From an uncultured Enterobacteriaceae bacterium (GTDB lineage Bacteria > Myxococcota_A > UBA9042), in contig CAYURO010000026.1 of NCBI GenBank assembly GCA_964447285.1, forward strand, positions 143-64,142: a stretch of 64,000 nucleotides of DNA. Reading direction: 5' to 3'. This document shows, one piece after another, positions 6,001-9,000 of the stretch; position 1 is the stretch's first letter; each line of letters begins with the position of its first letter. The position numbers are program-made.

Positions 6001-9000
6001 AGTCGTCACGACGCTTGCGGGCTCGGTAGATGGTTGGCAGGACGGCCCGGCCCCGATGGCACGCATGACCTCGCCGCGCGGACTGTGTACTGGTGCGTTG
6101 GGTCAGGTGTATGCCACGGACGGCCATCGCCTGCGCCAACTCGCTCCCGCGCAACAGGTTTGTGACGATGGCAACCCCTGCACCCAAGACGCTTGCGTCA
6201 AGACGACCGGCAAGTGCCAGCACGTGCAGGCCCAAGCGGGGTCACCGTGCGACGACGGCGATGCGTGCACTGCGGTACAGGCCTGCAACGCCAACGGACA
6301 GTGCGCGGGAGTCTTGAAGTCGTGCGACGACGGCAATCCCTGCACCGACGATGCGTGCAACCCCTACTCAGCGGTCTGCGAGAACCTGGACCGGACCGGC
6401 GCGTGCACGGACGGCAACGCGTGTACCCTCGACGACCACTGTCTGGCAGGCCAGTGTACGACGGAGATTGTTCAGGTGACGACGGTGGCCGGCGCCGCAA
6501 CCAGCGGGTGGGTGGACGACGCAGGCCGGGACGCAAGGTTCAAGCTGCCGCGCGACCTGGTGGTCGATGCAGACGGCAACGCGTATGTCGTAGACAGCGA
6601 CAACCACAGGATCCGCAAGGTGGATGCGAGTGGAGTGGTGACGACACTGGCAGGCGGAGTCGACGGCTATGCGGACGGAACGGGCGCGGCGGCGAAGTTC
6701 TCGTCACCGTGGGGTATCGCCCGCGACGCACAGGGCAACCTGTACGTCAGCGACACCGGCAACAACCGGATCCGCAAGGTGACACAGCAGGGCATCGTGA
6801 CAACGTTTTCGGGCAGCGGCACGGGCGGCTACCTGGACGGTCCGGCCAGCAGCGCCCAGTTCAATGCGCCGCGCGGTCTGGTGCGCGACGCGAACGGCGT
6901 GCTGTATGTGGCCGACTCGGGCAATCAGCGCATCCGCACCGTTGCCACAAACGGCGCGGTCGGGACGCTTGCAGGCGCCGGAACCGCCGGCCACATCGAC
7001 GGCGCGGCATCCTCCGCACGCTTCAACGCGCCGTCCAGCCTGGCGTTTGGAGCGACCGGCACCCTTTTCATCGCTGAGTTGGGCAACCACGCCATCCGCA
7101 CCCTGTCGGCCAACAACGTCGCTACCTTGGCGGGTGGCGTTGCGGGCATGCTCGACGCGAACGGTCGTGTTGCGCGCTTCAGTTCACCGATCGCGGTCGC
7201 GGTCGACAACAGCGGGATGGCCTATGTCGCCGACCAGGGCAACCGCCGCGTTCGCCGTGTCACGCCAGCGGGCGCGGTGACCACTTGGACCGGCGATGGC
7301 AGTCAGGGCGTGGTCGACGGTTCTCCCAACACCGCGAAATTCACCACGTTGTCCGGCATGACCATGGACGCGAGCCAGCAGCTTTGGGTGACGGACGCGC
7401 ACGCCGTGCGCCGGGTGTCCATGCCTGCTCCCGTGTGCGACGACGGCAAGCCGTGCACGCTCGACACCTGCAACGTGCAAAGTGGCGCGTGCGTCTTCAC
7501 GCCGGTGCCCGAGGGCGCCGAGTGCACCGACGGCGACGCGTGCACCACGGGCGACAAGTGCCTGTCAGGCGCCTGCAAGGGCCAGGCATCGACCTGCGGC
7601 AACAACGAAACGTGCACCGCGGGCGTATGCTCGCTGTTCCAGGGCACGACGGTGCTGACCAAGGCGGAGCAGCTGGCGGTCAACGGCTGGATCGGGCTGG
7701 CCGGTCAGGCGTGGACGCTGTGCTACAAGCTTGGCCCGGACCTGCCCAACTCTGCCGTATTCCATCAGAAGTGCGACAACAAGGGCCCCACGGTGCTGAT
7801 CGCGCGCTCGACGCTCGGCAAGGTGTTTGGGGCCTACGCGTCGCAGCCATGGAAGTCGTCCGGCAACTATGTGCCCGACCCCGCGGCGTTGTTGTTCTCG
7901 GTGTCGAACGCTGCGAAGTTTGCGATCAAGGTGCCGGCGGACGCGCTTTACGACCTGGCGACCTACGGTCCCTCGTTTGGCACCGGCCCAGATCTGCAAC
8001 TGGGAGCGACGGTGATGAGCGGAACGTCGAGCATGGGCACGACCTATACCTGTGCCTCAGCCTGCACCACCCAGCTGGCGGGCGCGCAGGACGGCTGGCT
8101 GCTTCCCGAGGTCGAGGTGTTCGTCAAGAAGTGAGGCTTACGATGCATTCCCCCCATGCCGTTGCGGGTCCTCTAGCCGACCCACGCTTCCGCGCCTTGC
8201 GCCAACGTCGTTGCGCCACCCTCTGCTGGTCCGTTGCGGTCCTTGTGTGGGCTGGCTGCGGCACCGATGACGTGTCGGTCGCCGATCCGTCGGGCGATGT
8301 CACCACCGTCGATGAGGAATCCACCGACACGGACACCGGCGACGCAACCCAGGGTTCTGACTCGGCACAGCAGGGTTGCACCTCGTCGGCGGGTTGTGGC
8401 GAGCAGGTGTGCGACCCCGTCTCGGGGCAGTGCGTCGACTGTGTGGTGCACGCGGACTGTCCCGCCACCACCGACCGCTGCAGCTTCAACAGCTGCGTCA
8501 CCCAGGTGCCGTGTCAGTCCGACAAGGCCTGCCTGGCGCACGGAAACGTATGCGACGAAGCCGCAGGGGTCTGCGTGGATTGCGTCGGCGATGCGGACTG
8601 CGACGATGGCAAGTCCTGTCTTGCCCAGACTTGCGTGGGGGCACCGGCCGCCTGCACGTCCAGCAAGGATTGTCCCTTGGGCCAGATCTGCGACCAGAAC
8701 GCTGGGCACTGTCTTGGCTGCGAGAAGGACGTCGACTGCAATCCACTCGAGTACTGCTGGCAGTCCGTTTGCAGCGTGGACGCCTGCGTCGCAGGGACCC
8801 AGAAGTGTCAGGATGAGCAGACGTTGCTGACCTGTCACACAAACGGCAGCAAGTGGGACGTCACCGCCTGTGGAACCGGGCAGTCGTGTTTCGGTGGCAA
8901 GTGCGTGAAGGTGGTGTGCACCGCCAAGGCCAAATCATGCGCTTTCGACGGCGGCGTGCAGACGTGCGTCGACGACGGAAGTGCGTGGGGAACGTCCATT

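What the first reader, a model, noticed from the sequence alone, without database searches (positions are those of the whole stretch)
7649..8134. TLDc domain at the C-terminus of a 2629-aa bacterial surface lipoprotein
The last 161 aa match the TLDc pattern closely: ...AWTLCYKLGPDLPNSAVFHQKCDNKGPTVLIARSTLGKVFGAYASQPWKSSGNYVPDPAALLFSVSN...YGPSFGTGPDLQLG...LPEVEVFVKK. The matching elements are FH.KCD.KGPT, a strand, G.FGGY...W, D..AFLFSL, GP.FG.G.DL and a terminal EVF strand. TLDc is best known from eukaryotic OXR1/NCOA7/TBC1D24-type proteins, which interact with V-ATPase. Here the domain is predicted to be extracytoplasmic and is appended to Cys-repeat and NHL-propeller arrays. I do not recognise this context, and it implies a different role for the domain, for example a cell-surface or contact-dependent effector.
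Basis: partly seen in the sequence, partly recalled or inferred. Interest (0 to 1): 0.65.

Follow-up and report, generated by a model that had tools for sequence, protein, structure and literature searches.

The report
Secreted bacterial TLDc domain on lipoprotein
The last ~167 residues of a giant lipid-anchored protein from an uncultured lake myxobacterium are a genuine TLDc domain, but it belongs to a large, database-annotated and unstudied group of secreted bacterial TLDc proteins, and it looks like a binding "head" rather than a toxin.

Summary
ORF 245..8134 (2629 aa) ends in a TLDc domain. Pfam TLD scores 71 bits against a cut-off of 24.5. An AlphaFold model (pLDDT 94.5) matches only solved TLDc structures, best TM 0.80 to NCOA7. 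An extracytoplasmic location is well supported by a conserved lipobox (LVGC) and 209 cysteines in disulfide-type repeats.

The context is not unique. An exhaustive search found 5,595 relatives. About a quarter of the closest 150 carry signal peptides or lipoboxes, with TLDc at the C-terminus behind Stig1, MopE, LamG or collagen modules. NCBI already names such proteins "TLD domain-containing protein" and has a model for PEP-CTERM-anchored ones. I found no paper on them.

The polymorphic-toxin reading is not supported. TLDc is 95.8% identical in two sister MAGs, with dN/dS 0.07. No immunity-like gene or toxin motif is present. The downstream gene is a conserved paralogue.

More distant homologues of the scaffold carry other binding-type C-terminal modules (RCC1, fibrinogen-C, MAM, lamin-tail). 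My best reading (~0.5) is a distal recognition or adhesion head on a long lipid-anchored stalk, ligand unknown. It is a new member of a known but uncharacterised kind, of moderate interest.

The parts
234..239 (+). Shine-Dalgarno-like AGGAGG, 5 nt upstream of the ATG
   Evidence: Read directly from the sequence.
245..8134 (+). Gene for the 2629-aa lipoprotein. Its order is signal/lipobox, acidic linker, Cys-rich repeats, then three NHL propellers separated by Dicty_CTDC linkers, then TLDc.
   Evidence: ORF, translation, Pfam. The identical protein is found on 10 or more metagenome contigs.
245..346 (+). Lipoprotein signal peptide, MTCTVHVSRGPRLLRLTAFASLAAVFFAGSLVG|C. The lipobox is L31-V32-G33-C34 (nt 335-346).
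   Evidence: Sequence. The Cys and lipobox are conserved in L005 and L006 as LAGC/LVGC. Assigned by heuristic reading; no SignalP-type tool was available.
347..976 (+). Acidic, Pro/Asp/Thr-rich linker (aa 35-105) followed by irregular Cys-rich modules (aa 106-244).
   Evidence: Translation. This is the least conserved part, at 70-75% identity to orthologues.
977..3595 (+). Twenty tandem ~44-aa six-cysteine repeats (aa 245-1117). Two types alternate: CNATGT..G and C..DGL.W. This is the predicted rod-like stalk.
   Evidence: Repeat parsing. Alignment A4 has 32 invariant columns, including all Cys. The AF2 model is all beta-hairpins with pLDDT 93.4. No Pfam hit and no significant PDB fold match.
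3596..3889 (+). Cys-rich Dicty_CTDC-like linker (aa 1118-1215).
   Evidence: Pfam Dicty_CTDC, E 3.7e-20, 7 stretches; translation. Boundaries are approximate.
3890..4849 (+). NHL beta-propeller 1 (aa ~1216-1535), with six blades carrying H/N-R-[IVL]-R signatures.
   Evidence: Pfam NHL E 1.1e-87 and TEN_NHL E 8e-62. Blades counted in the translation.
4850..5164 (+). Dicty_CTDC Cys-rich linker 1 (aa ~1536-1640).
   Evidence: Pfam; translation.
5165..6139 (+). NHL beta-propeller 2 (aa ~1641-1965).
   Evidence: Pfam; translation.
6140..6469 (+). Dicty_CTDC Cys-rich linker 2 (aa ~1966-2075).
   Evidence: Pfam best Dicty_CTDC stretch at aa 1973-1994.
6470..7429 (+). NHL beta-propeller 3 (aa ~2076-2395).
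   Evidence: Pfam best NHL stretch at aa 2152-2178. Collinear with P0075.
7430..7630 (+). Dicty_CTDC Cys-rich linker 3 (aa ~2396-2462), directly preceding TLDc.
   Evidence: Translation; alignment with P0075.
7631..8131 (+). TLDc domain (aa ~2463-2629), followed by the stop codon at 8132-8134. This is the finding itself.
   Evidence: Pfam TLD at 71 bits. AF2 pLDDT 94.5. Foldseek TM 0.80 to the NCOA7 TLDc. Bacterial-clade motifs. dN/dS 0.073.
8143..11250 (+). Downstream paralogue, a 1035-aa lipoprotein (lipobox W-A-G-C). It has Cys repeats, one NHL propeller and Dicty_CTDC, but no TLDc. The gap to the upstream gene is 8 nt, so co-transcription is probable.
   Evidence: Translation. Pfam. 40% identity to aa 717-1570 of the large protein, and conserved at ~90% identity downstream in L005 and L006.

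Best explanation
The gene encodes a very large surface or periplasm-exposed lipoprotein of an uncultured freshwater Myxococcota bacterium.

Its N-terminal cysteine is lipid-modified and anchors the protein in a membrane. A long disulfide-stapled stalk follows: 20 six-Cys repeats, then three six-bladed NHL propellers spaced by Dicty_CTDC linkers. The stalk holds a single TLDc domain at the free distal end.

I propose that this TLDc is a non-catalytic recognition or adhesion head. It would bind a protein or glycan ligand on another cell, on prey, or in the matrix. This is analogous to the globular C-terminal heads of collagen-stalk or repeat-stalk adhesins.

Shown: domain identity and fold, the secretion signal, purifying selection, membership of a secreted bacterial TLDc clade, and the modular family context. 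Inferred: lipidation and surface exposure, the binding function, and the absence of catalysis. The ligand is unknown.
For: - **Domain identity and fold.** TLDc is confirmed by HMM and by fold.
- **Known biochemistry.** In eukaryotes the only demonstrated biochemical property of TLDc is protein-protein binding, with no enzymatic activity confirmed (PMC8608904).
- **Extracytoplasmic location.** The lipobox is conserved in the orthologues and the paralogue. The protein has 209 Cys in regular repeats.
- **Bacterial clade membership.** In a crude NJ tree the window's domain falls in a clade of 52 terminals. Of these, 38 carry a bacterial-type Cys-pair motif and 26 a signal peptide.
- **Architecture of relatives.** Relatives place a C-terminal TLDc behind Stig1 repeats, DUF4215, MopE, Laminin_G_3 and Dicty_CTDC. 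Others place it behind collagen repeats (PF01391), or in front of PEP-CTERM anchors (PF07589; NCBI name 'PEP_CTERM-anchored TLD domain-containing protein'). This stalk-plus-head or anchor-plus-head layout is typical of adhesins.
- **Small secreted forms.** Proteins made of only a signal peptide and TLD also exist, for example P0050 and P0155, both 207 aa.
- **Alternative heads on the same scaffold.** In other Myxococcota MAGs, homologues of the NHL/Dicty scaffold end in different binding-type modules: RCC1-like, Fibrinogen_C, InhA-like MAM, lamin-tail, COLFI and dockerin.
- **Conservation.** TLDc is at least as conserved as any other part of the protein. It is 95.8% identical with dN/dS 0.073, against 0.10 for the whole protein. 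The same Dicty-NHL-Dicty-TLDc order is kept in a 46%-identical homologue, P0075.
- **Expression.** A few 100%-identical lake metatranscriptome contigs lie inside the gene and its paralogue.
Against: - No ligand, binding assay or localisation data exist for any bacterial TLDc.
- The binding-head role is argued by analogy and from domain neighbours.
- The bacterial clade has a strongly conserved YGPTFGGGHD motif and a DG.S loop, which could mark an active site rather than a binding surface. The window's domain has diverged at both sites (GTGPD and PDLPNS), so its activity may differ from the clade's or be lost.
- Surface exposure as opposed to periplasmic retention cannot be decided from sequence.
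- The transcript evidence is thin and does not cover the TLDc segment.
Confidence: 0.5

Rival explanations
1. Contact-dependent effector or polymorphic toxin. The TLDc would be a C-terminal toxic cargo delivered to neighbouring cells.
For: It is a C-terminal domain on a giant surface protein. At deep divergence the scaffold family carries varied C-terminal modules, including one with RHS/YD-shell repeats.
Against: - The domain is not variable among close orthologues: 95.8% identity, dN/dS 0.073.
- No small downstream immunity-like ORF exists. The next gene, 8 nt away, is a conserved 1035-aa paralogue.
- No pre-toxin, cleavage or toxin family is found by Pfam.
- TLDc occurs in tandem arrays of up to 7 copies and internally in giant proteins, which is unlike toxin tips.
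- The alternative C-termini in homologues are mostly binding modules.
Confidence: 0.06
2. Extracellular enzyme. The bacterial TLDc clade would be catalytic (the domain was originally predicted to be an enzyme), acting on a cell-envelope, matrix or redox substrate.
For: The bacterial clade has near-invariant polar or small-residue motifs: FH..CD, GGY..SW, YGPTFGGGHD, an invariant Asp and an invariant Glu. The 'c' in TLDc stands for a predicted catalytic role (PMC12930195).
Against: - No enzymatic activity has been confirmed for any TLDc (PMC8608904).
- The window's domain replaces the clade's conserved His (GGGHD becomes GTGPD) yet remains under purifying selection.
- The conserved Gly and Glu residues correspond to buried fold determinants in NCOA7 (G845, G896, E938) rather than to an active site.
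Confidence: 0.12
3. C-terminal sorting or secretion domain. The TLDc would act like a T9SS-type C-terminal domain that targets diverse passenger proteins for export or attachment.
For: In bacterial-type relatives the domain is almost always at the extreme C-terminus of otherwise unrelated secreted proteins.
Against: - Many family members are only a signal peptide plus TLD, with no passenger (P0050, P0155).
- Some have TLD followed by a separate PEP-CTERM sorting tag.
- Giant lipoproteins P0007, P0008 and P0040 have two internal copies.
- The domain is a 170-aa homologue of a cytosolic eukaryotic interaction domain.
Confidence: 0.05
4. Anti-eukaryote factor. The TLDc would mimic host TLDc regulators and target the V-ATPase of protist grazers or hosts.
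For: Eukaryotic TLDc domains bind V-ATPase (PMC8608904). The best fold match is NCOA7B bound to V-ATPase. The bacterial clade's closest sequence relatives include expanded protist and cnidarian TLDc families.
Against: - The V1 sector is cytosolic, and no translocation machinery or signal is evident.
- The surface-loop residues whose mutation abolishes or weakens NCOA7 binding (G815, S817) are not conserved here, where the sequence is PDLPNS.
- The domain is tethered to a 2,460-aa lipid-anchored stalk.
Confidence: 0.04

Closest known systems
Eukaryotic TLDc proteins (OXR1, NCOA7, TBC1D24, TLDC2, mEAK-7; Pfam PF07534)
   Same: Same domain family and fold. The Pfam score is 71 bits, and TM is 0.72-0.80 to the solved NCOA7, OXR2 and mEAK-7 TLDc domains. 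Equivalents of the buried core residues G845, G896 and E938 are kept.
   Different: - Extracytoplasmic and lipid-anchored instead of cytosolic.
- Only 17-21% identity to the solved structures.
- Has a clade-specific Cys pair near the C-terminus.
- Lacks the G815/S817 surface loop needed for V-ATPase binding by NCOA7.
- No LysM, TBC or other eukaryotic partner domains.
Bacterial 'TLD domain-containing proteins', including NCBIfam NF038124 (PEP_CTERM-anchored TLD domain-containing protein)
   Same: The TLDc is of the same secreted bacterial type: W.LCY, FH..CD..GPT, FLFS, YGP.FG.G.D, a Cys pair, and E.EVF. It nests among them in an NJ tree. Many come from Myxococcales or Deltaproteobacteria MAGs.
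   Different: - The window protein scores 53.7 bits against NF038124, below its cut-off of 100, and has no PEP-CTERM tag.
- It is anchored by an N-terminal lipobox.
- It is about 10 times larger than typical members.
- Its motifs are divergent: GTGPD for GGGHD and PDLPNS for S.DGAS.
- The combination with NHL propellers was seen only in this lineage and in P0075.
Myxococcota giant Cys-repeat/NHL/Dicty_CTDC surface proteins (teneurin-like NHL architecture)
   Same: Same scaffold of Cys-rich repeats, NHL propellers and Dicty_CTDC linkers. tblastn confirmed 383 related stretches in species-representative genomes, mostly Myxococcota MAGs.
   Different: None of the 77 other loci examined has a TLDc within 10 kb either side. 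They end in RCC1-like, Fibrinogen_C, MAM, LTD, COLFI, dockerin, FGE-sulfatase or RHS modules, or in MYXO-CTERM-like tags.
Polymorphic toxin / CDI-type systems
   Same: A large surface protein with a distinct C-terminal module, in a family whose C-termini vary.
   Different: No immunity gene, no toxin or pre-toxin domain, no variability among close orthologues, and no linked secretion system.

Membership tests
TLDc domain (Pfam PF07534) | Profile HMM score above the curated gathering threshold | tested here: met
   71.1 bits on the fragment and 64.7 bits on the whole protein, against a cut-off of 24.5. E = 1.4e-19.
TLDc domain (Pfam PF07534) | TLDc fold, as in 4ACJ, 7OBP and 6R82 | tested here: met
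   AF2 pLDDT 94.5. The top 15 Foldseek PDB hits are all TLDc, with TMq 0.66-0.80 and E down to 9e-11. Nothing else falls below E = 1.
TLDc domain (Pfam PF07534) | Conserved buried residues (NCOA7 G845, G896, E938 equivalents) | tested here: met
   The G of vFGAY, the G of FGTG and the E of EVEVF align with them. G76, G122/G126 and E171 are invariant in alignment A1.
V-ATPase-binding TLDc regulators (OXR1/NCOA7 type) | Surface loop Gly/Ser (NCOA7 G815, S817), required or important for V-ATPase pull-down | tested here: not met
   The window has ..GPDLPNS.. at this loop with no aligned Gly or Ser. The bacterial consensus S.DGAS keeps them. The alignment in this loop contains a gap, so the exact pairing is uncertain.
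V-ATPase-binding TLDc regulators (OXR1/NCOA7 type) | Cytosolic location and physical binding to V1 | not testable with these tools
   Location is predicted to be extracytoplasmic (lipobox). Binding needs an experiment.
NCBIfam NF038124 PEP_CTERM-anchored TLD protein | Score above the curated cut-off and a C-terminal PEP-CTERM tag | tested here: not met
   53.7 bits against a cut-off of 100. The protein ends ...EVEVFVKK with no PEP-CTERM or transmembrane tail.
Bacterial lipoprotein (SPase II substrate) | Positively charged n-region, hydrophobic h-region and a lipobox [LVI][ASTVI][GAS]C | tested here: met
   R9, R12 and R15 form the n-region. LTAFASLAAVFFAGS is the h-region. L-V-G-C34 is the lipobox. 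It is conserved in L005 and L006 and in the paralogue as WAGC. Assigned by manual or heuristic reading only.
Bacterial lipoprotein (SPase II substrate) | Demonstrated lipidation and export | not testable with these tools
   The organism is uncultured, so heterologous expression is needed.
Polymorphic toxin / contact-dependent inhibition effector | C-terminal domain hypervariable or swapped among close relatives | tested here: not met
   TLDc is 95.8% identical to L005 and L006, against ~90% for the whole protein. dN/dS is 0.073.
Polymorphic toxin / contact-dependent inhibition effector | Small cognate immunity gene immediately downstream | tested here: not met
   The next gene, after 8 nt, is a conserved 1035-aa lipoprotein paralogue. 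After that come RND efflux genes on the other strand.
Polymorphic toxin / contact-dependent inhibition effector | Recognisable toxin or pre-toxin domain, or a linked T5/T6/T7/Rhs delivery module | tested here: not met
   Pfam and NCBIfam scans of the protein and its neighbours show none.

The most novel reading that the evidence does not exclude
Extracellular TLDc domains form a large, ancient bacterial clade whose members are recognition heads, or enzymes, for a ligand unrelated to V-ATPase. On this reading the eukaryotic V-ATPase role is a derived use of the fold. It may have arisen after exchange between bacteria such as Myxococcota and amoeboid or cnidarian lineages that have hugely expanded TLDc families. 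Identifying the bacterial ligand would then reveal the still-unknown intrinsic biochemistry of TLDc.
Probability: 0.15. Interest if true: 0.7.

Novelty: new member of a known kind. Interest (0 to 1): 0.38.

Why it matters
TLDc is medically relevant through OXR1, NCOA7 and TBC1D24 disease variants, yet its intrinsic biochemical activity is unresolved. The literature I could search treats it as a eukaryotic, cytosolic V-ATPase-binding module, and I found no paper on bacterial TLDc.

This window gives a clean, high-confidence example of a TLDc domain that must work outside the cytoplasm. The survey shows it is one of thousands of such bacterial proteins. That makes a V-ATPase-independent function of the fold directly testable with small secreted family members. 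The particular gene, however, is an ordinary modular surface protein of a freshwater myxobacterium rather than a new kind of system.

Tried and rejected
- **Word-index homology search.** The search with the 191-aa C-terminus returned nothing, not even itself. The exhaustive HMMER search and a profile search were needed instead.
- **Polymorphic-toxin test.** I looked for swapped C-termini in close orthologues, an immunity gene and toxin motifs. All were negative.
- **Genomic context of a stand-alone myxobacterial TLD gene (P0155).** Its neighbours are a PUFA-synthase-like gene, a PPTase and Band_7 genes. No conserved partner suggests a function.
- **Cluster look-up for names or cultured hosts.** This yielded only MAG or hypothetical labels.
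- **Fold search of the 6-Cys repeat stalk.** No significant PDB match was found.
- **Metatranscriptomes.** Only a handful of short contigs map to the gene, and none lie on the TLDc segment. Expression is suggested but not shown.
- **Disulfides and conserved surface.** I could not inspect model coordinates, so disulfide pairing in the TLDc and the location of conserved surface patches were not assessed.
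Full report
**1. The observation**

The window has a 2629-codon ORF at 245..8134 on the + strand. It starts with ATG, and an AGGAGG lies 5 nt upstream.

- Pfam TLD (PF07534) matches aa 2487-2626. On the 161-aa fragment E = 1.4e-19 and the score is 71.1 bits, against a gathering cut-off of 24.5.
- A sequence search of all PDB chains returns only TLDc proteins. These are zebrafish OXR2 4acj (E 1.2e-3), several NCOA7 entries (2-5e-3) and mEAK-7.
- An AlphaFold2 model of aa 2454-2629 was built on a 36-sequence alignment and has mean pLDDT 94.5 and pTM 0.90.
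- All 15 significant Foldseek hits for that model in the PDB are TLDc domains: NCOA7B on V-ATPase 7uzg_T (E 9e-11, TMq 0.80), then 8ar6, 7obp, mEAK-7, 4acj, Skywalker 6r82 and Oxr1 7fde. The sixteenth hit has E > 1.

The whole domain, with its N-terminal helix, starts at about aa 2463 (nt 7631).

**2. The protein and its location**

The N-terminus reads MTCTVHVSRGPRLLRLTAFASLAAVFFAGSLVG-C34. It has three Arg residues, an 18-residue hydrophobic core and an L-V-G-C lipobox. The two orthologues found keep the Cys and the lipobox as LAGC and LVGC. The paralogue next door has WAGC.

The mature protein contains 209 Cys, of which 159 lie in aa 106-1215. From the N-terminus to the C-terminus, the mature protein consists of:

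- an acidic linker;
- twenty ~44-residue repeats with six invariant Cys each, in two alternating types;
- three NHL propellers with six blade signatures each, separated by Dicty_CTDC Cys-rich linkers (Pfam NHL E 1e-87, TEN_NHL 8e-62, Dicty_CTDC 4e-20);
- the TLDc domain.

A model of four of the six-Cys repeats is a confident all-beta-hairpin rod (pLDDT 93.4, pTM 0.58). It has no significant PDB counterpart. Its alignment was made only from the protein's own repeats, so it should be treated with caution.

The lipobox and the dense, regular Cys pattern make a cytoplasmic location very unlikely. Lipidation and surface exposure remain inferences.

**3. Source organism and conservation**

The identical protein is on a 63-kb JGI metagenome contig and on several Logan assemblies. 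The DNA is present in at least 20 freshwater or lake metagenome runs.

A scan of species-representative genomes found two near-orthologues. L005 is 'Myxococcota bacterium Deming_bin.407' and L006 is 'uncultured Myxococcales bacterium Loc090721-8m_bin-517'. They are 93-94% identical over the C-terminal 611 aa.

The window otherwise carries ordinary chromosomal genes: PDH E1, PrmC, RNase J, LepA, thiolase and an RND efflux pair.

Region-by-region comparison with L005 and L006 gives these identities:

| Region | Identity to L005/L006 |
|---|---|
| N-terminal linker | 70-75% |
| Cys repeats | ~91% |
| NHL propellers | 87-95% |
| Dicty_CTDC linkers | 83-90% |
| TLDc | 95.8% |

Nei-Gojobori dN/dS is 0.073 for TLDc and ~0.10 for the whole gene. 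The domain is therefore under purifying selection at least as strong as the rest of the protein.

The 1035-aa paralogue starts 8 nt after the stop codon. It lacks TLDc and is conserved at ~90% identity in both MAGs.

A few 151-254-nt, 100%-identical contigs from lake metatranscriptomes lie in both genes. None lies on the TLDc segment itself. This is weak evidence of transcription.

**4. How unusual a secreted bacterial TLDc is**

An exhaustive HMMER search of 1.84 billion cluster representatives found 5,595 proteins at E <= 1e-3 and 1,045 at E <= 1e-10. The top 150 are a mixture of two kinds.

- Proteins without a predicted signal peptide, often with 2-7 tandem TLDc copies. Named relatives from the second search are from corals and an amoeboflagellate. 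Entamoeba species are reported to encode up to 343 TLDc proteins (PMC12930195).
- Proteins with signal peptides or lipoboxes, 39 of 150 by a simple heuristic. About 42 of 150 carry a bacterial-type Cys-pair motif.

Pfam scans of ten members of the second group show a C-terminal TLD behind other modules. These are Stig1 repeats (up to 16), DUF4215, MopE, Laminin_G_3, a weak Fibrinogen_C match, or Dicty_CTDC.

A profile search of the named database returned 'MAG: TLD domain-containing protein [Myxococcales bacterium]' and the equivalent label for '[Deltaproteobacteria bacterium]'. It also returned a Nitrospina protein and 'PEP_CTERM-anchored TLD domain-containing protein [Pseudomonadota bacterium]'. 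Precomputed domain pairs included PF01391, PF04885, PF11617, PF07589 and PF01453. From memory, PF01391 is the collagen repeat, PF07589 is PEP-CTERM and PF01453 is the bulb-type lectin.

NCBIfam already has a model for the PEP-CTERM-anchored type, NF038124. The window scores 53.7 bits against it, below its cut-off of 100.

In a crude NJ tree without support values, the window's domain sits in a 52-member clade dominated by proteins that carry the bacterial Cys motif or a signal peptide.

Secreted bacterial TLDc is therefore a sizeable class that is annotated in databases. Four full-text searches found no paper dealing with it.

**5. What is specific to this gene**

Fusion of TLDc to the NHL/Dicty scaffold is rare. 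Of 79 related loci from GTDB genomes, only L005 and L006 contain a TLDc within 10 kb either side.

One metagenomic fragment, P0075, is collinear through Dicty-NHL-Dicty-TLDc at 46% identity. The other homologues end in tails of 140-900 aa with RCC1-like propellers, Fibrinogen_C, InhA-like MAM, lamin-tail, COLFI, dockerin, FGE-sulfatase, RHS/YD-shell or DUF1554 domains. Some end in MYXO-CTERM-like tags.

The family is therefore a common stalk with interchangeable distal modules, and most of these modules are of a binding type.

The window's TLDc is also a divergent member of its clade. The clade consensus YGPTFGGGHD reads YGPSFGTGPD here, so the His is lost, as it is in P0049. The S.DGAS loop reads GPDLPNS.

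That loop corresponds to NCOA7 G815/S817, where G815A abolishes V-ATPase pull-down and S817A reduces it. The equivalents of the buried residues G845, G896 and E938 are kept (PMC8608904; alignments).

**6. Mechanism**

My best-supported reading (about 0.5) is a lipid-anchored, disulfide-rigidified stalk that presents TLDc as a distal recognition or adhesion head.

Support for this reading:
- the only demonstrated property of TLDc is protein binding (PMC8608904);
- relatives have stalk-plus-head or anchor-plus-head architectures;
- the same scaffold carries alternative binding heads in other lineages;
- the domain is under strong purifying selection.

Arguments against the rivals:
- The toxin or contact-dependent-effector idea fails each defining test: variability, an immunity gene and toxin motifs.
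- A catalytic role is possible for the clade, but the lost His and the absence of any known TLDc activity count against it here.
- A sorting-domain role is contradicted by proteins made of only a signal peptide and TLD, by internal copies, and by TLD followed by a PEP-CTERM tag.
- Targeting of eukaryotic V-ATPase is topologically difficult, and the key loop is not conserved.

**7. Verdict**

The finding is real and the domain assignment is correct. The 'different, extracellular role' is a reasonable inference. The specific effector hypothesis is not supported.

The gene is a new member, with a rare domain combination, of a class that is annotated in databases but has not been studied experimentally. 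Interest is moderate. The class as a whole offers a route to a V-ATPase-independent function of TLDc, but this particular locus adds an example rather than a new principle.

Noticed in passing
window 11257-15711 (- strand): A single 1484-aa ORF joins a complete AcrB-type RND pump (ACR_tran, aa 4-1008) in frame to an OEP/TolC-like outer-membrane factor (aa ~1100-1481). At the junction there is an in-frame Met followed by a signal-peptide-like or transmembrane segment (MRIFRKSS...VVALLLAMGLALAWPTQATAQ). It could be a true fusion, with an extra helix bringing the OEP part to the periplasm, or two genes with a lost stop codon or an internal start.
   Followed up: partly
window 977-3595 (+), aa 245-1117 of the large protein; similar repeats in 8143-11250: Twenty tandem ~44-aa repeats carry six invariant Cys each, in two alternating types. 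They have no Pfam or NCBIfam match. The AF2 model is a confident beta-hairpin rod with no significant PDB fold match (best E 0.011, TM below 0.2).
   Followed up: yes
window 6470-8131 compared with L005 and L006: Synonymous divergence is clearly lower at the 3' end of the gene. dS is 0.23-0.33 in NHL3 and TLDc, against 0.49-0.73 elsewhere. This might reflect recombination or gene conversion among the lake populations, or a codon or composition constraint.
   Followed up: no
L007-L083 (related loci in Myxococcota MAGs): The NHL/Dicty/Cys-repeat scaffold forms a large multi-copy family. tblastn confirmed 383 related stretches, with several loci per MAG. Members carry interchangeable C-terminal modules: RCC1-like, Fibrinogen_C, MAM, LTD, COLFI, dockerin, FGE-sulfatase and RHS/YD-shell. 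L059 and L063 end in MYXO-CTERM-like Cys, transmembrane and Arg-rich tails.
   Followed up: partly
L008, L011, L017, L025, L027, L029, L031, L039, L061, L072, L073: Several 'binchicken'/TPA MAGs titled 'uncultured Enterobacteriaceae bacterium' carry these typically myxobacterial giant Cys-repeat/NHL genes. L042, titled Gammaproteobacteria, does so as well. The record titles look like taxonomic mislabels.
   Followed up: no
window 8143-11250 (+): A paralogous 1035-aa lipoprotein lies 8 nt downstream. It is 40% identical to aa 717-1570 of the large protein, lacks TLDc and is conserved at 90% identity in sister MAGs. The pair probably forms an operon, and lake metatranscriptome contigs map to both genes.
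   Followed up: yes
window 20477-22588 (+), 23832-25139 (-), 36572-38638 (-), 50820-52271 (+), 52715-54100 (+): Five long ORFs (435-703 aa) have no Pfam match at E <= 1e-3 or 1e-5. Whether they are real genes was not examined.
   Followed up: no
Upstream of the window start (JGI contig): On the source contig the gene is preceded by a 958-aa hybrid histidine kinase (PAS-HisKA-HATPase-REC-Hpt) and a 150-aa ORF with no domain hit. A regulatory link is possible but untested.
   Followed up: no
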